A stretch of 22,854 nucleotides of DNA from a virus (IMGVR_UViG_644736359_000002), one strand, 5' to 3'. Shown: positions 5,855 through 22,104, counted from the stretch's first letter. The notes: generated by a model from the sequence alone, not told the origin. Numbers and translations are program-made.

Positions 5855-6406
5855 ATGAAAACACTTATCGTTTCAACTGTATTGGCATTCATAACATTTT
5901 CTGCGCAGGCTGCAGCATTTCAGGTCACTAGTAATGAAATAAAAACAGGAGAGCAACTTACAACGTCTCATGTCTTTTCTGGATTTGGGTGTGAAGGTGG
6001 TAATACATCGCCCTCATTAACCTGGTCTGGTGTTCCTGAAGGTACCAAAAGCTTTGCCGTAACTGTATATGATCCAGATGCACCTACAGGCAGTGGTTGG
6101 TGGCATTGGACTGTTGTTAATATTCCAGCAACAGTAACATATTTGCCCGTTGATGCAGGGAGACGTGATGGAACAAAACTGCCGACTGGTGCTGTTCAAG
6201 GCCGAAATGATTTTGGCTATGCTGGGTTTGGTGGCGCATGTCCTCCTAAAGGAGATAAACCACATCATTACCAGTTTAAAGTATGGGCTCTAAAAACTGA
6301 AAAGATTCCTGTAGATTCTAACTCCAGCGGAGCGTTAGTTGGTTATATGCTTAATGCTAATAAAATCGCAACCGCTGAGATAACACCAGTTTATGAGATA
6401 AAGTAG
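5855..6406 (+). CDS. ybcL: Periplasmic PEBP/RKIP-family protein with signal peptide (183 aa)
   Basis: Signal peptide MKTLIVSTVLAFITFSAQA; PEBP-like motifs (DPDAP, GWWHW, PPKGDKPHHY); recalled as YbcL. Confidence 0.88.
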   Translation: MKTLIVSTVLAFITFSAQAAAFQVTSNEIKTGEQLTTSHVFSGFGCEGGNTSPSLTWSGVPEGTKSFAVTVYDPDAPTGSGWWHWTVVNIPATVTYLPVDAGRRDGTKLPTGAVQGRNDFGYAGFGGACPPKGDKPHHYQFKVWALKTEKIPVDSNSSGALVGYMLNANKIATAEITPVYEIK

Positions 6407-14377: not shown

Positions 14378-14953
14378 ATGGAAGTCAACAAAAAGCAGCT
14401 GGCTGACATTTTCGGTGCGAGTATCCGTACCATTCAGAACTGGCAGGAACAGGGAATGCCCGTTCTGCGAGGCGGTGGCAAGGGTAATGAGGTGCTTTAT
14501 GACTCTGCCGCCGTTATAAGATGGTATGCCGAAAGGGATGCTGAAATTGAGAACGAAAAGCTGCGCCGGGAAGTTGAAGAACTGCGGCAGGCCAGCGAGA
14601 CAGATCTCCAGCCAGGGACTATTGAGTACGAACGCCATCGACTTACGCGTGCGCAGGCCGACGCACAGGAGCTGAAAAATGCCAGAGACTCCGCTGAAGT
14701 GGTGGAAACCGCATTCTGTACTTTCGTGCTGTCGCGGATCGCAGGTGAAATTGCCAGTATTCTCGACGGGATCCCCCTGTCGGTGCAGCGGCGTTTTCCG
14801 GAACTGGAAAACCGACATGTTGATTTCCTGAAACGGGATATCATCAAAGCCATGAACAAAGCAGCCGCGCTGGATGAACTGATACCCGAACACGGCACTG
14901 GTCGGCGTGCAGGTGGACTCGGAGCAGTTCGGCAGCCAGCAGGTGAGCCGTAA
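14378..14953 (+). CDS. nohD: Terminase small subunit Nu1 homologue with altered C-terminus (reads out of frame into J sequence after the deletion junction)
   Basis: [43 protein letters not shown]... recalled as near-identical to lambda Nu1 up to ...AAALDELIP; the final ~20 residues ([21 protein letters not shown]) are not Nu1-like. Confidence 0.8.
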
Positions 14954-17729
14954 TTATCATCTTCGCGGGCGCATTCTGCAGGTGCCGTCGAACTATAACC
15001 CGCAGACGCGGCAATACAGCGGTATCTGGGACGGAACGTTTAAGCCGGCATACAGCAACAACCCGGCCTGGTGTCTGTGGGATATGCTGACCCACCCGCG
15101 CTACGGCATGGGGAAACGTCTTGGTGCGGCGGATGTGGATAAATGGGCGCTGTATGTCATCGGCCAGTACTGCGACCAGTCAGTGCCGGACGGTTTTGGC
15201 GGCACGGAGCCGCGCATCACCTGTAATGCCTACCTGACCACGCAGCGTAAGGCGTGGGATGTGCTCAGTGATTTCTGCTCGGCGATGCGCTGTATGCCGG
15301 TATGGAACGGGCAGACGCTGACGTTCGTGCAGGACCGACCATCAGATAAGGTGTGGACCTATAACCGCAGTAATGTGGTGATGCCGGATGATGGCGCGCC
15401 GTTCCGCTACAGCTTCAGCGCCCTGAAGGACCGCCATAATGCCGTTGAGGTGAACTGGATTGACCCGAATAACGGCTGGGAGACGGCGACAGAGCTTGTT
15501 GAAGATACGCAGGCCATTCTCCGTTACGGTCGTAACGTCACGAAGATGGATGCCTTTGGCTGTACCAGCCGGGGGCAGGCACACCGCGCCGGGCTGTGGC
15601 TGATTAAAACGGAGCTGCTGGAAACGCAGACCGTGGACTTCAGCGTGGGTGCCGAAGGGCTTCGCCATGTACCGGGCGATGTCATTGAAATCTGCGATGA
15701 TGACTATGCCGGTATCCGCACCGGCGGGCGCGTGCTGGCGGTAAACAGCCAGACCCGGACGCTGACGCTCGACCGTGAAATCACGCTGCCATCTTCCGGC
15801 ACCACGCTGATAAGCCTGGTTGACGGGCAGGGGAGTCCGGTCAGCGTGGAGGTTCAGTCCGTCACCGACGGCGTGAAGGTGAAAGTGAGCCGTGTTCCTG
15901 ACGGCGTTGCTGAATACAGCGTATGGGGGCTGAAGCTGCCGACGTTGCGCCAGCGCCTGTTCCGCTGCGTGAGTATCCGTGAGAACGACGACGGCACGTA
16001 TGCCATCACCGCCGTGCAGCATGTACCGGAAAAAGAGGCCATCGTGGATAACGGGGCGCACTTTGACGGCGACCAGAGCGGCACGGTAAATGGTGTCACG
16101 CCGCCAGCGGTGCAGCACCTGACCGCAGAAGTCACCGCAGACAGCGGGGAATACCAGGTGCTGGCCCGCTGGGATACGCCGAAGGTGGTGAAGGGCGTGA
16201 GCTTCCTGCTTCGCCTGACCGTGGCAGCGGATGACGGCCGTGAGCGACTGGTCAGCACGGCCCGGACGACGGAAACCACTTACCGCTTCACACAACTGGC
16301 TCTGGGGAACTACAGGCTGACAGTCCGGGCAGTAAATGCGTGGGGGCAGCAGGGCGAGCCGGCGTCGGTATCGTTCCGGATTGCCGCACCGGCAGCGCCG
16401 TCGCAGATTGAGCTGACACCGGGGTATTTTCAGATAACCGCCACGCCGCATCTTGCGGTTTATGATCCGACGGTACAGTTTGAGTTCTGGTTCTCGGAAA
16501 AGCGGATTGCGGATATCAGGCAGGTTGAAACCACAGCACGCTATCTTGGCACGGCGCTGTACTGGATAGCCGCCAGTATCAATATCAAACCGGGCCATGA
16601 TTATTATTTTTACATCCGCAGTGTGAACACCGTTGGCAAATCGGCATTCGTGGAGGCTGTTGGCCAGCCGAGTGATGATGCATCCGGCTATCTGAATTTT
16701 TTCAAAGGAGAGATAGGGAAAACCCATCTGGCTCAGGAGTTGTGGACGCAGATTGATAACGGTCAGCTTGCGCCTGACCTGGCGGAAATCAGAACGTCCA
16801 TCACGGATGTCAGTAATGAAATCACGCAGACCGTCAATAAGAAACTGGAAGACCAGAGTGCGGCAATCCAGCAGATACAGAAGGTTCAGGTTGATACAAA
16901 TAATAACCTGAACAGCATGTGGGCTGTGAAGCTGCAGCAGATGCAGGACGGACGCCTTTATATCGCGGGTATTGGTGCCGGTATTGAGAATACCCCTGAC
17001 GGTATGCAGAGTCAGGTGCTGCTGGCGGCGGACAGGATTGCGATGATTAATCCTGCGAATGGCAACACAAAGCCGATGTTTGTTGGTCAGGGCGATCAGA
17101 TATTCATGAACGAAGTGTTCCTGAAATATCTGACGGCTCCCACCATTACCAGCGGCGGTAATCCTCCGGCATTTTCCCTGACACCGGACGGGCGGCTGAC
17201 GGCGAAAAATGCCGATATTAGCGGTAACGTGAATGCGAACTCCGGGACGCTCAACAACGTCACGATTAACGAGAACTGCCGGGTTCTGGGAAAACTGTCC
17301 GCGAACCAGATTGAAGGCGATCTCGTTAAAACAGTGGGCAAAGCTTTCCCCCGGGACTCCCGTGCACCGGAGCGGTGGCCATCAGGGACCATTACCGTCA
17401 GGGTTTATGACGATCAGCCGTTTGACCGGCAAATTGTTATTCCGGCGGTGGCATTCAGTGGCGCTAAACATGAGCAAGATCATACTGATATCTACTCCTC
17501 ATGCCGTCTGATAGTACGAAAAAACGGTGCTGAAATTTATAACCGAACGGCTCTGGATAATACGCTGATATATACGGGTGTTATTGATATGCCTGCAGGC
17601 AGTGGTGTAATGACACTGGAATTTTCTGTATCGGCATGGCTGGTAAATGGCTGGTATCCCACAGCAAGTATCAGCGATTTGCTGGTTGTGGTGATGAAGA
17701 AAGCCACTGCAGGCATCATGATTAGCTGA
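14883..17729 (+). pseudogene. N-terminally truncated tail tip/host-specificity protein J (lambda J from about residue 190 to the C-terminus), no native start or RBS
   Basis: Frame opens right after a stop at 14880-14882 and reads [41 protein letters not shown]..., recalled as internal lambda J sequence; the last ~150 residues differ from lambda J. Confidence 0.85.
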
Positions 17730-17747: not shown

Positions 17748-17774
17748 GGGCGCCAGAAATGGCGCCTTTTTTAT
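17748..17774 (+). terminator. Candidate intrinsic terminator between J and the side-tail-fibre gene
   Basis: GGGCGCC (17748-17754), loop AGAAAT, GGCGCC (17761-17766), then TTTTTT. Confidence 0.55.
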
Positions 17775-17787
17775 TTGTGGAGTGAAT

Positions 17788-20133
17788 ATGGCAGTACAGA
17801 TTTCAGGTGTGCTGAAAGATGGTGCGGGAAAACCAATACAGAACTGCACTATTCAACTGAAGGCAAAGCGTAACAGCACCACGGTACTGGTGAACACGGT
17901 GGCCTCTGAAAATCCGGATGAAGCCGGGCGTTACAGCATGGATGTTGAGCATGGCCAGTACAGCGTCACCCTGCTGGTTGAAGGTTTTCCGCCTTCACAT
18001 GCCGGAACCATTACCGTCTATGAAGGTTCCAGACCAGGTACGCTGAATGATTTTCTCGGTGCCATGACGGAAGATGATGTCATGCCGGAGGCATTGCGTC
18101 GTTTTGAGGCAATGGTGGAAGAAGCGGCACGCAACGCCGAAGCCGCCTCTCAGAGCGCAGCGGCGGCAAAGAAATCCGAAACTGCAGCGGCATCATCGAA
18201 GAACGCGGCGAAAACCTCAGAAACGAATGCAGCTAACAGCGCACAGGCGGCAGCGTCCTCGCAGACTGCATCGGCAAACTCCGCGACAGCAGCCAAAAAA
18301 TCAGAAACCAACGCGAAAAACAGCGAGACAGCCGCAAAGACGAGCGAAACCAACGCAAAGTCCAGCCAGACGGCAGCGAAAACCAGCGAAACGAATGCCA
18401 AAGCCAGTGAAACTGCGGCGAAAAATAGCCAGAATGCAGCAGCCGAAAGCGAGAGCGCGGCAGCCGGTTCTGCGACTGCAGCAGCTGGATCAGCAACTGC
18501 TGCGGCTAACAGCCAGAAAGCAGCGAAGACGAGCGAAACTAACGCAAAGTCCAGCCAGACGGCAGCGAAGACCAGCGAAACAAATGCCAAAGCCAGCGAA
18601 ACTGCGGCGAAAAGCAGTCAGGATGCAGCAGCCGAAAGCGAGAGTGCTGCAGCTGGTTCTGCAAGTGCGGCGGCTGCTTCTGCCACTGCATCAGCAAACA
18701 GTCAAAAAGCTGCAAAAACCAGTGAAACCAATGCAAAGACAAGCGAGACTGCAGCGGCGAACTCGGCGCAAGCATCGGCAGCAAGCCAGACAGCAGCTAA
18801 AGCAAGTGAGGATGCAGCCAGAGAGTATGCAAGCCAGGCAGCAGAGCCGTATAAATATGTCTTACAGCCACTGCCTGATGTGTGGATACCGTTTAACGAT
18901 TCACTGGATATGCTTGCTGGCTTTTCGCCTGGTTATAAGCAAATAACCGTAGGTGATGATGTTATTAAAATGCCATCCGATAAGGTTGTTAGCTTCAAAC
19001 GCGCATCAGGTGCAACATACATTAATAAATCAGGTGTATTAACCGTTGCTGAAGTTGACGAACCGCGATTTGAACGAGAAGGTTTGCTGATTGAAGGACA
19101 GAGAACAAACTATTTCAGAAATTCAAATACACCAGAAGCATGGAATAACACGGGTAGTGTGTCTGTTGAGTCGTTCGACAGTGATAAGGGGTTTAACTAT
19201 GGAAGGATAACTGTTATTAATGAAAATCCGACAGCACAAGGATATCAGGCAATTGCTGTAAACACGAATGATGCTTACACCTGCCCGGCAGGTTCTTATA
19301 CGACGATATCGTGTCTGACGAAAAGTGATAATTCCCGGTGTCGTGCAAGGTTCGGAAAAATGTCTGATAATGGTGCGTTTGTTTTTCATTCAGATGCAGT
19401 TCTGGATCCTGTTACGGGAAATGTTGTTCATGGAAATAATGTGACGGTGACGGCAGAAAGAGTCGGTGAATGGTGGTTGTTTACCGCCACTCTTTTTGCA
19501 GATGCGGAAATGATAATCAGCTCAAGATTTGAAATCCTGGCGATGCCTGGAATCAGTATTATCCCCAATGGCTCTACGTTAGATATTGCGATGCCTCAGG
19601 CGGAGATTGGGTCGTACAGGACGTCATTTATCATTACTGAAGGGGCTCCTGGCACTCGCTCCAGCGACATGGTGACAATACCTGTAAGAAACAATATTCA
19701 CCGATTACCATTCAGTGCTCTTGTTGAAGTTAATAAAAACTGGGATATCCCTCCCAGCAAATCACCATTAATCTTTAATGTTAAAGATTATCAGGAAAAT
19801 GGTCTGTTCACGCATGGATTCCGTGGTAATAATTTCTCTGATGCCGGTTCTCCTTTTATTTCTATGGGAGGGTGTAATAAATATGTGGCAACAACCCAGA
19901 GGAAAATCATTTCAGGCTTCCGTTGTGGCGCTGATGGAGATGTTCAGGCCGTATGTAATGGTGAATTATCTGTTGCGGCAAAAACAACATGGACTTCAAT
20001 TGTTCCACGGGCAGTATTGCGAATTGGAGGGCAGGGCACTAATGGGGAGTATCATCTTTTTGGTCATATCCGTAATCTGCGTATCTGGCATAAAGAATTA
20101 ACTGATGCGCAAATGGGGGAGAGTATTAAATGA
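17788..20133 (+). CDS. Side tail fibre protein, mosaic: lambda Stf-like N-terminus, Ala/Ser/Thr-rich repeat region, C-terminal domain with a LamG/concanavalin-like signature
   Basis: MAVQISGVLKDGAGKPIQNCTIQLKAKRNSTTV... resembles the lambda Stf N-terminus as recalled; GGAG RBS before the ATG at 17788; C-terminus ...NGEYHLFGHIRNLRIWHKELTDAQM resembles the LamG-type domain tail motif. Confidence 0.8.
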   Translation: MAVQISGVLKDGAGKPIQNCTIQLKAKRNSTTVLVNTVASENPDEAGRYSMDVEHGQYSVTLLVEGFPPSHAGTITVYEGSRPGTLNDFLGAMTEDDVMPEALRRFEAMVEEAARNAEAASQSAAAAKKSETAAASSKNAAKTSETNAANSAQAAASSQTASANSATAAKKSETNAKNSETAAKTSETNAKSSQTAAKTSETNAKASETAAKNSQNAAAESESAAAGSATAAAGSATAAANSQKAAKTSETNAKSSQTAAKTSETNAKASETAAKSSQDAAAESESAAAGSASAAAASATASANSQKAAKTSETNAKTSETAAANSAQASAASQTAAKASEDAAREYASQAAEPYKYVLQPLPDVWIPFNDSLDMLAGFSPGYKQITVGDDVIKMPSDKVVSFKRASGATYINKSGVLTVAEVDEPRFEREGLLIEGQRTNYFRNSNTPEAWNNTGSVSVESFDSDKGFNYGRITVINENPTAQGYQAIAVNTNDAYTCPAGSYTTISCLTKSDNSRCRARFGKMSDNGAFVFHSDAVLDPVTGNVVHGNNVTVTAERVGEWWLFTATLFADAEMIISSRFEILAMPGISIIPNGSTLDIAMPQAEIGSYRTSFIITEGAPGTRSSDMVTIPVRNNIHRLPFSALVEVNKNWDIPPSKSPLIFNVKDYQENGLFTHGFRGNNFSDAGSPFISMGGCNKYVATTQRKIISGFRCGADGDVQAVCNGELSVAAKTTWTSIVPRAVLRIGGQGTNGEYHLFGHIRNLRIWHKELTDAQMGESIK
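18352..18729 (+). repeat. Tandem duplication, 2 x 189 bp (63 codons), within the tail-fibre gene
   Basis: Unit beginning AACGCAAAGTCCAGCCAGACGGCAGCG recurs at 18352 and 18541; the copies encode near-identical TNAKSSQTAAKTSETNAKASETAAK... segments. Confidence 0.8.
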
Positions 20134-20411
20134 AAGATTTAACACTCAAATTTGCAGACAGGGCCGACTTTTCGGCCTTTATGGAGAGTATTGGCTATTA
20201 TGATGACGAGTCGATGCAGGATGATATTCTTATTGACGTGATAGGTAACGTGTACAAAGAAACCGGAGAACTGACTGAAGATGGCGAACCGGTATGTGTT
20301 AAGGAAGACGGATATTTTGTAAACGTGCGCATCATTAATGATGTAAAAAAATCGTCAATATTCGATAAATACGCGGTTGTTGTTGAGCATCAACTTCGTG
20401 GCTGGATGTGA
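20130..20411 (+). CDS. Hypothetical acidic protein (93 aa), translationally coupled to the tail-fibre gene
   Basis: ATG overlaps the stf stop (ATGA); no family recognised. Confidence 0.55.
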   Translation: MKDLTLKFADRADFSAFMESIGYYDDESMQDDILIDVIGNVYKETGELTEDGEPVCVKEDGYFVNVRIINDVKKSSIFDKYAVVVEHQLRGWM

Positions 20412-20420
20412 GGGAGACAA

Positions 20421-21125
20421 ATGGCTACATCGACAGTAATTCCAGGAGATATCACCACGCTAAAGGGAGATGTCAGTAAAACTAAGGAAGATATTTCCTC
20501 AATTAACGGAAAAGTATCAACGCTTCAGACTGATATGACCAGTGCAAAGCAGGATATCAGCACCAGATACACAAAAACTGAAGTTGATAATAAGCTGAAA
20601 AACAAACTGGAAGTGAACGATCTGGAAAGCGGTCGTTATGGTGGAGATTTTTACCCGTTGACTGGCCGTGAAGCGTTTTATATGTGGGGATTGGGCACGA
20701 CTACAGCGGCGGCAAACCTTTATCTTAATCCTGACCCTGCAATTTCGTCTGTACTGCGGTCAACATCGTCTATTCGCTATAAACATTCAGTAGAGACGAT
20801 AGATTCAGAGCACGCCGATCTCATTTTCAGGATGCGCCCTGTGTGGTACAGGTCGCAATGCGAAAATGACAGGCGTGACTGGGGATTCTACGGATTGATT
20901 GCCGAGGAAGTAGGAGAAATTGCCCCTCAGTTTGTACACTGGCGACCAGCTAACGAAGATGATGCTCCTGAAGCTATTTCCAGCAATGGCCTTGTTGCCG
21001 AAGGTGTAATGTACGAACGTCTGGTTGTTCCACTGATTCACCATATCCAGAAGCTGACTGAAAGAGTTGATGAACTTGAGTCAGAATTAAAGTTGTTATC
21101 CGTTTCCCGAAGCGATATCGGATAA
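20421..21125 (+). CDS. Short fibre-like protein with C-terminal intramolecular-chaperone (peptidase S74-like) domain, 234 aa
   Basis: GAGGGAGA RBS; N-terminal heptad-like segment; C-terminal SIRYKHSVETI...WGFYGLIAEEVGEIAPQFV...GVMYERLVVPLIHHIQKLTERVDELESEL fits the autoproteolytic chaperone domain of tail fibres/tailspikes. Confidence 0.65.
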   Translation: MATSTVIPGDITTLKGDVSKTKEDISSINGKVSTLQTDMTSAKQDISTRYTKTEVDNKLKNKLEVNDLESGRYGGDFYPLTGREAFYMWGLGTTTAAANLYLNPDPAISSVLRSTSSIRYKHSVETIDSEHADLIFRMRPVWYRSQCENDRRDWGFYGLIAEEVGEIAPQFVHWRPANEDDAPEAISSNGLVAEGVMYERLVVPLIHHIQKLTERVDELESELKLLSVSRSDIG

Positions 21126-21135
21126 AGGAGGAGTA

Positions 21136-21429
21136 ATGGATATAACACCTTTCCTTCATGCGCTTTGTGCTGTGGCTGCGCAGCTACTGATTGGTCTTTT
21201 TACCGGGAACTGGGCTTACGGGGCGATAGCCGGTTGTACGTTCTTCATTGCGCGTGAACACACCCAGGCAGAATATCGCTGGATCGAAATGTTCGGGCAT
21301 GGCAAGCGAATGAATATGCCGTGGTGGGGCGGTTTTGATACACGTGCATGGGATGTGGCAAGCCTGATGGATTTTGCTGTGCCGGTGGTGGCGTGTCTGC
21401 TGGTCTGGCTGTTGGTTAATCGTGGGTGA
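21136..21429 (+). CDS. Small predicted membrane protein (97 aa, two hydrophobic segments)
   Basis: Strong AAGGAGG RBS 6 nt before the ATG; hydrophobic N- and C-terminal segments; overlapping - strand ORFs judged spurious. Confidence 0.6.
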   Translation: MDITPFLHALCAVAAQLLIGLFTGNWAYGAIAGCTFFIAREHTQAEYRWIEMFGHGKRMNMPWWGGFDTRAWDVASLMDFAVPVVACLLVWLLVNRG

Positions 21430-22104
21430 AAAAAGGTGAGCTGTATATGCAACGGAGGAAGAAAACTCGTTGCTGGAAGCCTGGAAAAAGTATCGGGTGC
21501 TGCTAAACCGTGTGGACACTTCCGTAGCACCAGATATCGAGTGGCTTATTCAACCATAATAAACAGTATGTATATCATAGGTTATTAATTGTGAGTTTTT
21601 TCGGTGTGTTATTTGTTTGTTTGATGTTATGCTTTTGCGCCCCAAAAGGTTGTTTAGATGTATTTTATCAATTGATTTTCAATGTCGTTTAATAAAGAAA
21701 AATTAAGCAAGCTGGATGTTGGTTTTTTGTTAATTGAATGGTTCTAATAATGTTTTTTTACTGTTGTTGAATGTGACTTGATAAGAAATGCAAGTAAAAA
21801 TGATACTCTTTTTATTTTAAATTCAAACGGTTGACATATATATAGCAAGAGGTTTCAGGTGCGTTGTAGTGAGTTTATGTTAATAAAAAGTATAGTAAGC
21901 GTTGAAAAATGTAACTTTGAAATACGTTAGAATAAAAAACAATATACATATAATAATTTAATCTTAAATGAAATTTATTAAAATTTGCAAACTATAATTT
22001 TGTGTATAAAAATATAAATGCACATCATCCTGATTATGATTGTGTATTTAATTGGTTGTTATTTGACTGCTATCAACTTGTTTTAATTTTATGATAGGTG
22101 CAAG

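What the first reader, a model, noticed from the sequence alone, without database searches (positions are those of the whole stretch)
20130..21429. Three-gene distal module after the tail fibre: 93-aa acidic protein, short fibre with intramolecular chaperone domain, small membrane protein
All three genes have good RBSs and tight or overlapping junctions, consistent with one operon with the fibre gene. The 234-aa protein has a coiled-coil-like N-terminus and a C-terminal autoproteolytic chaperone-type domain. The 97-aa membrane protein sits where lambdoid phages often carry superinfection-exclusion or host-interaction genes (lom/cor position). I could not place the 93-aa or 97-aa proteins in any family.
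Basis: partly seen in the sequence, partly recalled or inferred. Interest (0 to 1): 0.55.

Follow-up and report, generated by a model that had tools for sequence, protein, structure and literature searches.

The report
Two-part tail fibre cassette plus passenger membrane gene
The three genes are real. The first two are parts of a widely shared two-piece phage side tail fibre, and the third is a highly conserved small membrane protein of unknown function that sits beside receptor-binding genes in many phages; here they lie in a dead prophage of E. coli B.

Summary
They have strong ribosome-binding sites, tight junctions and dN/dS of 0.07-0.83, below 0.3 in six of seven comparisons. The window is the defective DLP12-type prophage of E. 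coli B, ending at appY.

- **ORF234** is a minimal distal fibre. It has an invariant N-terminal docking peptide, a coiled coil and a Peptidase_S74 self-cleaving chaperone domain (Ser116/Lys121). Known kind.
- **ORF93** always follows the roughly 420-aa lectin-like C-terminal domain of the upstream Stf-type fibre. This holds in lambda-like, T1-like, 9g-like, T5-like and rV5-like phages, even where no distal fibre gene exists. I infer it is that domain's cognate partner, either a chaperone or a small subunit. Its fold matches nothing informative.
- **ORF97** belongs to an uncharacterised family of about 100-aa, three-helix membrane proteins with a near-invariant loop (REHTQAEYRWI...MPWWGGFD). 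It lies just 3' of diverse receptor-binding genes in lambda-, P22- and P2-like temperate phages. It is absent or decayed in virulent phages that carry the same fibre cassette, so fibre assembly does not need it.

Against it: no promoter of its own, no match to defence libraries, and up to seven copies per genome. Overall this is an ordinary fibre module plus one truly unknown conserved family.

The parts
17788..20133 (+). Proximal side tail fibre (Stf-type; 781 aa from the PGAP start, 783 aa from the GTG at 17782). It has a lambda-type N-terminal virion anchor, an Ala-rich repeat shaft, and a roughly 420-aa lectin-like C-terminal domain (aa ~360-783).
   Evidence: Pfam PF08400 E 5.9e-67. NCBIfam GTA_spike_fiber domain at aa 436-627. 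phrog_1419 and phrog_5939. The C-terminal domain is 33-50% identical in ESCO3, PeterMerian, JLBYU40, nimi and L089 fibres.
20130..20411 (+). ORF93: small acidic alpha/beta protein, the cognate partner of the proximal fibre's C-terminal domain. Whether it acts as an assembly chaperone or a small subunit is inferred, not shown.
20421..21125 (+). ORF234: minimal distal fibre subunit with a C-terminal intramolecular chaperone.
   Evidence: Pfam PF13884 above cut-off. It matches only the C-terminal end (1147-1384 of 1385) of the long-fibre family phrog_3299. PDB 8hqz chain d (deposited as 'L-shaped tail fiber assembly', 1076 aa) C-terminus at E 1.6e-7, and the MYRF ICA domain. Annotated 'tail fiber domain-containing protein'.
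20421..20495 (+). Conserved N-terminal peptide of ORF234 (aa 1-25, MATSTVIPGDITTLKGDVSKTKEDI), the presumed docking module.
   Evidence: Invariant core M-[AV]-T-x-T-V-I-P-x-D-I-x-x-L-K in lambda-like, T1-like, 9g-like and T5-like distal fibres whose remaining sequence is only 27-29% identical. Matches phrog_4563 positions 1-32.
20766..21122 (+). Intramolecular chaperone domain of ORF234 (aa 116-234). Predicted self-cleavage is immediately before Ser116 (codon 20766-20768), with Lys121 as the dyad partner. This would leave a mature 115-aa, 12.5-kDa product.
   Evidence: The Pfam match starts at model position 1 at S116. S116 and K121 are invariant in alignment A3. TSSIRYK matches TSGIEYK in PDB 8hqz chain d. 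Masses. Cleavage itself is inferred.
21136..21429 (+). ORF97: three-helix membrane protein of an uncharacterised conserved family (phrog_1443; UniRef name 'Ybl63').
   Evidence: AF2 pLDDT 87. 453 clusters at 90% identity and 422 representatives at 50% identity, nearly all (137 of the 150 listed) single-domain proteins of 70-125 aa. No Pfam, NCBIfam or PADLOC hit. Present in 1899 of 5426 complete E. coli genomes.
21253..21354 (+). Near-invariant hydrophilic loop of ORF97 (aa 40-73: REHTQAEYRWIEMFGHGKRMNMPWWGGFDTRAWD).
   Evidence: R40-I50, M61, P62, W64-D68 and W72 are invariant across 19 sequences that include Escherichia, Salmonella, Leclercia, Citrobacter, Aeromonas and Comamonas proteins and several of unrecorded source. 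The loop holds nearly all K/R residues of the protein.
21449..21559 (+). Remnant of the 3' end of a tail-fibre-assembly (Tfa) gene, which I read as a recombination scar bounding the cassette.
   Evidence: PGAP pseudogene 'tail fiber assembly protein, missing N-terminus'. Translation [36 protein letters not shown].

Best explanation
The stretch 17788-21429 is one late-operon cassette.

**(1) Proximal fibre.** The Stf-type protein anchors to the tail through its lambda-type N-terminus. It ends in a roughly 420-aa lectin-like domain.

**(2) ORF93.** ORF93 is translated by coupling from the fibre gene. It is the dedicated partner of that C-terminal domain. It is most likely a small assembly chaperone that may stay bound as an accessory subunit, working like a Tfa without being one.

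**(3) ORF234.** ORF234 is an exchangeable distal mini-fibre. Three chains would dock on the proximal fibre through the invariant N-terminal peptide and zip into a coiled coil. The C-terminal intramolecular chaperone would fold them and then cut itself off before Ser116, leaving a 115-residue tip.

**(4) ORF97.** ORF97 is not a fibre component. It is a passenger inner-membrane protein of a conserved, uncharacterised family found at the 3' flank of receptor-binding-protein cassettes, mainly in temperate phages. It is probably made with the late genes. I guess that it acts on a conserved host envelope or membrane component rather than on a specific receptor.

**(5) This genome.** The prophage has lost every head and tail gene between terS and the middle of J. 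The module is therefore an intact relic that no virion of this prophage can use.

**Shown versus inferred.**
- Shown: gene reality, domain identities, synteny, allele exchange, and decay of ORF97 in virulent phages.
- Inferred: docking, cleavage, the chaperone role of ORF93, and any activity of ORF97.
For: **Context.** The window is 100% identical over 1.8 kb to E. coli B. The annotated order there is terS, truncated TipJ, fibre, hypothetical, tail-fibre-domain protein, hypothetical, tfa fragment, appY, ompT.

**ORF234.**
- Peptidase_S74 above the Pfam cut-off, and a Ser/Lys pair aligned with canonical SDxxxK alleles.
- Matches to PDB 8hqz chain d and to MYRF.
- An N-terminal 15-25 aa motif shared with distal fibres of PeterMerian, ESCO3, Tritos and JLBYU40 despite 27-29% identity elsewhere.

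**Allele exchange.** Among 80 IMG/VR loci:
- 34 have 93-234-97.
- 31 have 93-[~346-aa allele]-97.
- 6 have ORF93 followed by ORF97 after an 18-nt gap.

Phage 21 has the arrangement without a distal gene.

**ORF93.** It co-occurs and co-diverges with the fibre's C-terminal domain. In Comamonas prophages, proteins matching the same PHROGs (phrog_5939, then phrog_18574) precede an ORF97 homologue.

**ORF97 is dispensable for fibres.**
- It is absent from the Drexlerviridae, Nonagvirus, T5-like and rV5-like cassettes examined.
- It is an in-frame-stop remnant after the lateral fibre gene of T1-like phage 6947. Three more records match the same residues 41-93 at 43% with no annotated gene; I read only 6947.

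**ORF97 next to unrelated receptor-binding genes.**
- P22-like tailspikes in JEP4 and 611R6.
- The Tfa gene of phiHAP-1.
- An S74 fibre in an Aeromonas P2-like prophage.
- Leclercia and Silvania tailspikes.
- Cobetia phage Carin-5.
Against: - No structure of the complex could be computed, so docking of ORF234 on Stf and binding of ORF93 rest on synteny alone.
- The mature part of ORF234 (115 aa) is very small for a receptor-binding tip. BASEL annotators called the orthologue a 'putative lateral tail fiber chaperone'.
- The ORF93 link to the Comamonas 188-aa protein rests only on a shared PHROG. Direct hhalign gave about 1% probability.
- ORF97 homologues also occur away from receptor-binding genes: after the terminase gene in Aeromonas jumbo phages, between terminase and portal in a Desulfovibrio prophage, and beside housekeeping genes in Alphaproteobacteria and Aeromonas. 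The link to receptor-binding genes may therefore reflect insertion hot spots rather than function.
- Distant ORF97 homologues in large phages of unknown or virulent lifestyle weaken a temperate-only reading.
Confidence: 0.62

Rival explanations
1. ORF97 is a superinfection-exclusion or lysogenic-conversion protein. Made in the lysogen, it would alter the envelope or block DNA entry, so that phages using similar fibres cannot infect.
For: [quoted passage not shown]
- In P22-like phages it sits between the tailspike gene and int, the classical conversion locus. In 611R6 it lies next to an OafA-type O-acetylase.
- In phiHAP-1 it sits between Tfa and the sheath gene, which from memory is the P2 Z/fun slot.
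- It is kept in temperate phages but lost or decayed in virulent ones with the same cassette.
- It is under strong purifying selection.
Against: - No promoter was found, and intergenic gaps of 10-42 nt or 4-nt overlaps leave no room for one. It should therefore be a late gene, silent in lysogens.
- There are no PADLOC, Pfam or PHROG matches to Cor, Lom, Sie, Imm or gp15-type proteins.
- About 60% identity from E. coli to Comamonas, next to wholly different receptor-binding proteins, rules out receptor-specific masking.
- A median of 2 and up to 7 copies per E. coli genome argues against exclusion of like phages.
Confidence: 0.3
2. ORF97 is a lysis-timing membrane protein (holin-, antiholin- or pinholin-like) whose synthesis is tied to that of the last-assembled tail parts.
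For: - It is about 100 aa with three hydrophobic helices, like class I holins.
- In Acidovorax it lies directly upstream of an endolysin with an N-terminal anchor and an Rz-like spanin.
- In Comamonas it heads a run of membrane proteins, phrog_3108 and an Rz-like spanin.
Against: - The Comamonas cassettes already contain two better holin candidates, of 125 and 99 aa, the latter with a charged C-terminus.
- ORF97 has almost no C-terminal tail. Its conservation lies in a hydrophilic loop, not in the membrane helices.
- In E. coli, P22-like and P2-like phages it is far from the lysis genes.
- No holin PHROG matched it.
Confidence: 0.1
3. The short 231-234-aa allele is not a fibre at all. It would be a trans-acting chaperone or transient cap for the proximal fibre, discarded after assembly.
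For: - BASEL annotation 'putative lateral tail fiber chaperone' for the PeterMerian and VogelGryff orthologues.
- More than half of the protein is chaperone domain, and the mature part is only 115 aa.
- Some lineages do without any such gene.
Against: - S74 domains are known to act in cis on the chain they belong to (established knowledge of K1F endosialidase and T5 pb1).
- The same invariant N-terminal peptide heads 346-589-aa alleles that carry obvious receptor-binding domains.
- The short architecture is conserved at 58% identity between temperate and virulent phages.
Confidence: 0.18
4. ORF93 is a structural adaptor that joins distal to proximal fibre, rather than a folding chaperone.
For: - It always lies between the two fibre genes when both are present.
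- BASEL annotates bas32_0023 as 'tail fiber protein'.
Against: - It is retained and equally diverged (49%) in lineages with no distal fibre gene: phage 21, L089 and rV5-like nimi.
- The distal N-terminal peptide stays nearly invariant while ORF93 drifts to 36% identity.
Confidence: 0.3

Closest known systems
C-terminal intramolecular chaperone domains (Peptidase_S74) of K1F endosialidase, T5 L-shaped fibre pb1 and GA-1 gp12
   Same: ORF234 residues 116-234 match PF13884 above threshold. They carry the Ser-x4-Lys pair at the domain start and end in a helical coiled segment.
   Different: The upstream mature part is only 115 aa (coiled coil plus a roughly 50-aa tip) instead of a long beta-helical fibre or enzyme. 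The motif reads SSIRYK rather than SDxxxK. Cleavage is untested.
Two-protein lateral tail fibres of T5-like phages: DT57C LtfA/LtfB (PMC4728585, PMC10713586) and IrisVonRoten Gp22/Gp24 (PMC11990801)
   Same: A proximal fibre is anchored to the tail, and a distal fibre has a short conserved N-terminal docking peptide and an S74 C-terminus. IrisVonRoten bas32_0022/0023/0024 and JLBYU40 164/163/162 are direct homologues of Stf, ORF93 and ORF234 in the same order.
   Different: The anchor here is the lambda Stf type (PF08400), not the T5 LtfC-dependent type. The distal protein is a minimal allele without the T-shaped double receptor-binding domain. The small middle protein is not discussed in those papers.
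Lambda Stf-Tfa, Mu S-U and P2 H-G fibre and chaperone pairs
   Same: A small gene is translationally coupled to the 3' end of the fibre gene and co-varies with the fibre's C-terminal domain.
Receptor-blocking or exclusion genes beside receptor-binding genes (T5 llp, phi80/N15 cor, HK97 gp15) and O-antigen conversion genes beside P22-like tailspikes (gtrABC, Sf6 oac)
   Same: ORF97 is a membrane protein encoded immediately next to receptor-binding genes, at the conversion locus in P22-like phages.
   Different: There is no homology. ORF97 is far more conserved than its neighbouring receptor-binding proteins, lacks its own promoter, and is neither a lipoprotein nor a glycosyl or acyl transferase.
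Class I holins (lambda S type)
   Same: Size and three hydrophobic helices. Adjacent to an endolysin gene in one Acidovorax prophage.
   Different: It has no charged C-terminal tail, its conserved part is a hydrophilic loop, and it is usually remote from lysis genes.

Membership tests
Peptidase_S74 / intramolecular chaperone auto-processing domain (ORF234) | Match to PF13884 above the curated gathering score | tested here: met
   27.1 bits against a cut-off of 22, E 5e-6; residues 116-172 cover model positions 1-57 of 58.
Peptidase_S74 / intramolecular chaperone auto-processing domain (ORF234) | Catalytic Ser and Lys five residues apart at the start of the domain | tested here: met
   S116 and K121 are invariant in alignment A3 and align with SDRDLK of the Tritos and ESCO3 alleles. 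TSSIRYK matches TSGIEYK in PDB 8hqz chain d.
Peptidase_S74 / intramolecular chaperone auto-processing domain (ORF234) | Autoproteolytic release of the domain after trimer folding | not testable with these tools
   Needs expression and SDS-PAGE or mass spectrometry. Predicted fragments are 12.5 and 13.7 kDa.
Two-part (proximal plus distal) lateral/side tail fibre | Proximal protein with a virion-attachment N-terminus | tested here: met
   PF08400 phage_tail_N, E 5.9e-67, residues 3-133 of Stf.
Two-part (proximal plus distal) lateral/side tail fibre | Distal protein with a short N-terminal module conserved across alleles and phage groups while the rest varies | tested here: met
   M[AV]TxTVIPxDIxxLK in lambda-like, T1-like, 9g-like and T5-like phages; the rest is 27-29% identical.
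Two-part (proximal plus distal) lateral/side tail fibre | Physical attachment of distal to proximal fibre in the virion | not testable with these tools
   No multimer prediction was available, and no virion proteomics exist for these phages.
Tfa-type tail fibre assembly chaperones (ORF93) | Sequence or fold membership (Caudo_TAP / Tfa families) | tested here: not met
Tfa-type tail fibre assembly chaperones (ORF93) | Encoded directly 3' of the fibre gene and co-varying with its C-terminal domain | tested here: met
   ATGA overlap. The pair is found in each of the eight phage and prophage loci examined, from six groups.
Known superinfection-exclusion / anti-phage defence proteins (ORF97) | Homology to a described exclusion or defence family | tested here: not met
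   No PADLOC hit. No Pfam or NCBIfam hit. PHROGs gives phrog_1443 and phrog_34165, both of unknown function.
Known superinfection-exclusion / anti-phage defence proteins (ORF97) | Independent expression in the lysogen (own promoter; moron architecture) | tested here: not met
   No + strand promoter-like site in 20130-21429. The intergenic gap is 10 nt here, and there are 4-nt overlaps in JEP4 and phiHAP-1. A consensus scan is weak evidence.
Known superinfection-exclusion / anti-phage defence proteins (ORF97) | Protection phenotype on expression | not testable with these tools
   Requires plating assays.
Holins (ORF97) | Small membrane protein with a charged C-terminal cytoplasmic tail, encoded beside an endolysin | tested here: not met
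   The C-tail averages 1.5 residues with 0.2 K/R. The gene is not beside lysis genes in the window. It is adjacent to an endolysin only in Acidovorax locus L101.

The most novel reading that the evidence does not exclude
ORF97 ('Ybl63', phrog_1443) represents a new class of phage accessory membrane protein that is functionally tied to receptor-binding-protein cassettes whatever the receptor. It is found next to such genes in lambda-, P22- and P2-like phages from Escherichia and Halomonas, and in Aeromonas, Leclercia, Silvania and Comamonas prophages. Through its invariant loop it would act on one conserved host envelope or membrane component, for example to limit re-adsorption or superinfection, or to remodel surface glycan export late in infection. 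In parallel, ORF93 would be a universal small subunit or chaperone of a lectin-tipped fibre used by at least five coliphage groups.
Probability: 0.3. Interest if true: 0.6.

Novelty: new member of a known kind. Interest (0 to 1): 0.4.

Why it matters
**Fibre part.** The fibre genes are ordinary, but the analysis gives a usable parts list for engineering host range:
- a portable proximal domain with its obligatory small partner;
- a 15-25-residue docking peptide that lets distal tips be swapped between lambda-, T1-, 9g- and T5-like phages.

**ORF97.** This family is in about a third of complete E. coli genomes, often in several copies. It is extremely conserved from Alpha- to Gammaproteobacteria, yet has no Pfam family and no described function. 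If it acts on a conserved envelope process, it would be a common, overlooked prophage effect on host cells. If it does nothing measurable, it is a well-documented example of a gene hitch-hiking at a recombination hot spot.

Tried and rejected
**Structure searches.**
- All three were uninformative.
- The afdb50 fold library was not available.

**Profile and literature searches.**
- PDB profile searches for both small families found nothing significant. The Stf C-terminal domain also has no solved relative.
- Accession numbers returned no paper. 'Ybl63' returned one unrelated yeast paper.
- The Tai tail-assembly-interference and lambda-vector papers turned out irrelevant.

**Ideas tested and dropped.**
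- ORF97 always follows an S74 fibre. It also follows tailspikes, Tfa genes and J-type proteins, and occurs beside housekeeping genes.
- ORF97 is restricted to temperate phages. Distant homologues exist in Aeromonas jumbo phages and Cobetia phage Carin-5.
- ORF97 is the holin of beta-proteobacterial prophages. Those cassettes have other, better holin candidates.
- ORF97 is a lipoprotein. I read the sequence: the Cys at residue 11 is not conserved and there is no lipobox.

**Unresolved.**
- Membrane topology. The K/R distribution favours a cytoplasmic loop, whereas the phage 21 depositors' TMHMM note implies a periplasmic one.
- A direct profile comparison of ORF93 with the Comamonas 188-aa protein failed. 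That link rests only on the shared phrog_18574.

Full report
**Where this is.**
- Window 19900-21700 is 100% identical to E. coli B and several other strains. Parts of it occur in 4390 of 5426 complete E. coli genomes, and 549 of those carry at least 80% of it.
- The annotated order in E. coli B is terminase small subunit, a TipJ pseudogene missing its N-terminus, a 'prophage tail fiber N-terminal domain-containing protein', a hypothetical protein, a 'tail fiber domain-containing protein', a hypothetical protein, a tail-fibre-assembly pseudogene fragment, then appY, ompT and envY.
- The window is therefore the right end of a DLP12-type lambdoid prophage. Its head and tail genes between terS and mid-J have been deleted, so the fibre module is a relic here.

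- The three ORFs are at the stated coordinates.
- The junctions are an ATGA overlap with the fibre gene, then 9-nt and 10-nt spacers, each preceded by a Shine-Dalgarno sequence (GGAG, GGGAGA, AGGAGG).
- The consensus scan finds no + strand promoter- or terminator-like site inside 20130-21429. A terminator-like hairpin lies between J and the fibre gene at 17748-17767, and phage 21's curators annotate a terminator at the same place.
- dN/dS against PhiR49_1 is 0.26, 0.15 and 0.28 for ORF93, ORF234 and ORF97. ORF97 gives 0.07-0.16 against other copies. ORF93 against Tritos gives 0.83, but that pair is only about 5% diverged.

**ORF234.**
- Pfam places Peptidase_S74 at residues 116-172, starting at model position 1, above the curated cut-off.
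- PHROGs matches the whole protein to only the last 240 positions of a 1385-position long-fibre family. Residues 1-32 match the first 32 positions of another tail-fibre family.
- In PDB the C-terminal half matches chain d of 8hqz, deposited as 'L-shaped tail fiber assembly' (TSGIEYK against TSSIRYK), and the MYRF auto-processing domain. The N-terminal 60 residues match the P22 tail-needle coiled coil weakly.
- I aligned it with orthologues from PhiR49_1 (96% identical), T1-like PeterMerian (58%), and the 346-351-aa alleles of Tritos and Nonagvirus ESCO3 (27-29%). Invariant residues cluster in the first 24 residues. S116 and K121, aligned with SDRDLK, are also invariant.
- The T5-like phage JLBYU40 has a 589-aa distal fibre that starts MVTKTVIPTDITKLK, the same motif.
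- This pattern matches what was described for the distal protein of branched fibres: the LtfB N-terminus in DT57C (PMC4728585), and coiled coil plus T5-like tip plus chaperone domain in small siphoviruses (PMC11990801).
- I read ORF234 as a minimal distal fibre whose mature form is residues 1-115. Cleavage and docking are inferred.

**ORF93.**
- It has no Pfam, NCBIfam or PADLOC match. It belongs to phrog_1361, of unknown function.
- tblastn finds homologues in 186 phage records. In each of the eight phage and prophage loci I examined, the gene directly follows, usually with overlap, a fibre whose last ~420 residues are homologous to Stf residues 360-783. These include:
  - lambda-like phages PhiR49_1, Tritos and phage 21;
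  - T1-like PeterMerian;
  - Nonagvirus ESCO3;
  - T5-like JLBYU40 and IrisVonRoten (bas32_0022/0023/0024);
  - rV5-like nimi.
- It is kept where no distal fibre gene exists (phage 21, E. ruysiae locus L089, nimi). There it has diverged in step with the fibre domain: 49% identity for the small protein and 41% for the domain.
- Its partner is therefore the proximal fibre's C-terminal domain, not the distal fibre.
- The AlphaFold2 model (pLDDT 83, beta-alpha-alpha-beta4) has no informative structural neighbour.
- By position and co-variation it behaves like a fibre chaperone or accessory subunit, but it fails the membership test for Tfa-type proteins.

**Cassette dynamics.**
- Among 80 IMG/VR loci chosen for an ORF97 homologue:
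  - 34 carry 93-234-97.
  - 31 carry 93-[~346-aa allele sharing only the N-terminal ~30 residues]-97.
  - 6 have ORF93 followed by ORF97 after 18 nt.
- The 234-aa allele is in 745 complete E. coli genomes and ORF97 is in 1899.
- A Tfa 3' remnant just after ORF97 (21449-21559) looks like the scar of replacement of a classical stf-tfa pair.

**ORF97: family and structure.**
- The family has 453 clusters at 90% identity and 422 representatives at 50% identity. Nearly all (137 of the 150 listed) are 70-125 aa, and no hit showed an extra domain.
- The loop REHTQAEYRWI...GKR..MPWWGGFD.R.W is invariant or nearly so across proteins that include Escherichia, Salmonella, Leclercia, Citrobacter, Aeromonas and Comamonas.

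**ORF97: genomic contexts.**
- Next to receptor-binding genes:
  - after the S74 distal fibre, or after ORF93, in lambda-like phages;
  - overlapping the tailspike gene of P22-like JEP4;
  - after tailspike, O-acetylase and a fibre remnant in 611R6;
  - overlapping the Tfa gene of phiHAP-1;
  - abutting, with a one-base overlap, an S74 fibre gene in an Aeromonas P2-like prophage;
  - after beta-helix tailspikes in Leclercia and Silvania;
  - between tailspike genes in Cobetia phage Carin-5.
- In Comamonas prophages the two genes before it match the same PHROGs as the Stf C-terminal domain (phrog_5939) and ORF93 (phrog_18574). If that holds, the arrangement without a distal gene predates the split of Gamma- and Betaproteobacteria. 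The ORF93 link is weak.
- Elsewhere, homologues lie after the terminase gene in Aeromonas jumbo phages, between terminase and portal in a Desulfovibrio prophage, and beside pirin, PNPase, DNA ligase or HerA genes in Aeromonas and Alphaproteobacteria.
- Virulent phages carrying the Stf-domain and ORF93 cassette lack it. In T1-like phage 6947 a remnant follows the lateral fibre gene, with an in-frame stop and the REHTQAEYRW motif destroyed. Three more records match the same residues at 43% with no annotated gene.
- Fibre assembly therefore does not need ORF97.

**What ORF97 does remains open.**
- Conservation far above that of neighbouring receptor-binding proteins argues for a conserved host target or an intrinsic activity, not receptor-specific masking.
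- Coupling to late genes with no room for a promoter argues for expression during lytic growth, against a classical lysogen-expressed moron.
- Up to seven copies per genome argues against exclusion of like phages.
- Adjacency to lysis cassettes in Betaproteobacteria keeps a lysis-timing role alive, but better holin candidates sit beside it.
- Topology is unresolved.
- My estimates: some envelope or exclusion role 0.3, a lysis-related role 0.1, and the rest unknown or hitch-hiking.

**Verdict.**
- The first two genes are ordinary components of a known kind of two-part fibre. This fibre is already visible, though not dissected, in the BASEL annotations.
- The third gene belongs to a truly uncharacterised, very conserved family.
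- Its recurrent placement beside receptor-binding genes across lambda-like, P22-like and P2-like phages is the one point worth an experiment.

Noticed in passing
window 14378-17729: The terminase small-subunit ORF (14378-14953) runs straight into an N-terminally truncated J/TipJ ORF (14907-17729). All head genes and most tail genes are deleted, so this DLP12-type prophage cannot make virions. PGAP marks TipJ as a pseudogene.
   Followed up: partly
window 17748-17767: A strong terminator-like hairpin (8 bp, 6 GC, T-run) lies between J and the fibre gene. Phage 21's curated record annotates a terminator at the equivalent position, so fibre-cassette expression probably depends on Q antitermination.
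   Followed up: partly
window 18285-18756: The fibre shaft is built of nested 21-, 42- and 189-nt tandem repeats encoding Ala/Ser/Thr/Lys-rich heptad-like units (…AAKTSETNAK…). AT skew reaches 0.66. The region produces long spurious ORFs in other frames and on the opposite strand.
   Followed up: partly
window 21449-21559: An orphan 36-codon 3' end of a Tfa (tail fibre assembly) gene lies directly after ORF97. I read it as a scar left when the cassette replaced a classical stf-tfa pair.
   Followed up: partly
window 21560-22104: A very AT-rich (23-31% GC) 0.5-kb spacer lies between the prophage end and appY, in sharp contrast to 43-53% GC in the fibre module.
   Followed up: no
L127 3465-3660 (Escherichia phage 6947): An unannotated, decayed ORF97 homologue lies between the lateral fibre gene and ssb of a virulent T1-like phage. 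Three more records (ST1UNAM, HC8A, PBM-2) match the same residues with no annotated gene. This may be evidence that virulent phages imported fibre cassettes from temperate phages.
   Followed up: partly
L100 4227-6303 and L006 (Comamonas prophages): A free-standing 402-aa protein matches the PHROGs of the Stf C-terminal domain. It is followed by a 188-aa protein whose N-terminus matches phrog_18574 (ORF93-like), then by the ORF97 homologue, then by holin-like, phrog_3108 and Rz-like genes. This may be an ancestral form of the cassette.
   Followed up: partly
L131 (phage vB_EcoP-611R6) 1905-3788: In this P22-like phage the ORF97 homologue shares the tailspike-to-int conversion locus with an OafA/YrhL-type O-acetylase and a 37-codon tail-fibre remnant.
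   Followed up: no
L114, L117, L120 (alphaproteobacterial MAG contigs), ORF97-like genes at about 5900-6320: Chromosomal ORF97 homologues beside housekeeping genes have lower third-position GC (0.64-0.72) than most of their neighbours (0.77-0.87). This suggests recent single-gene acquisition rather than an ancestral cellular gene.
   Followed up: no
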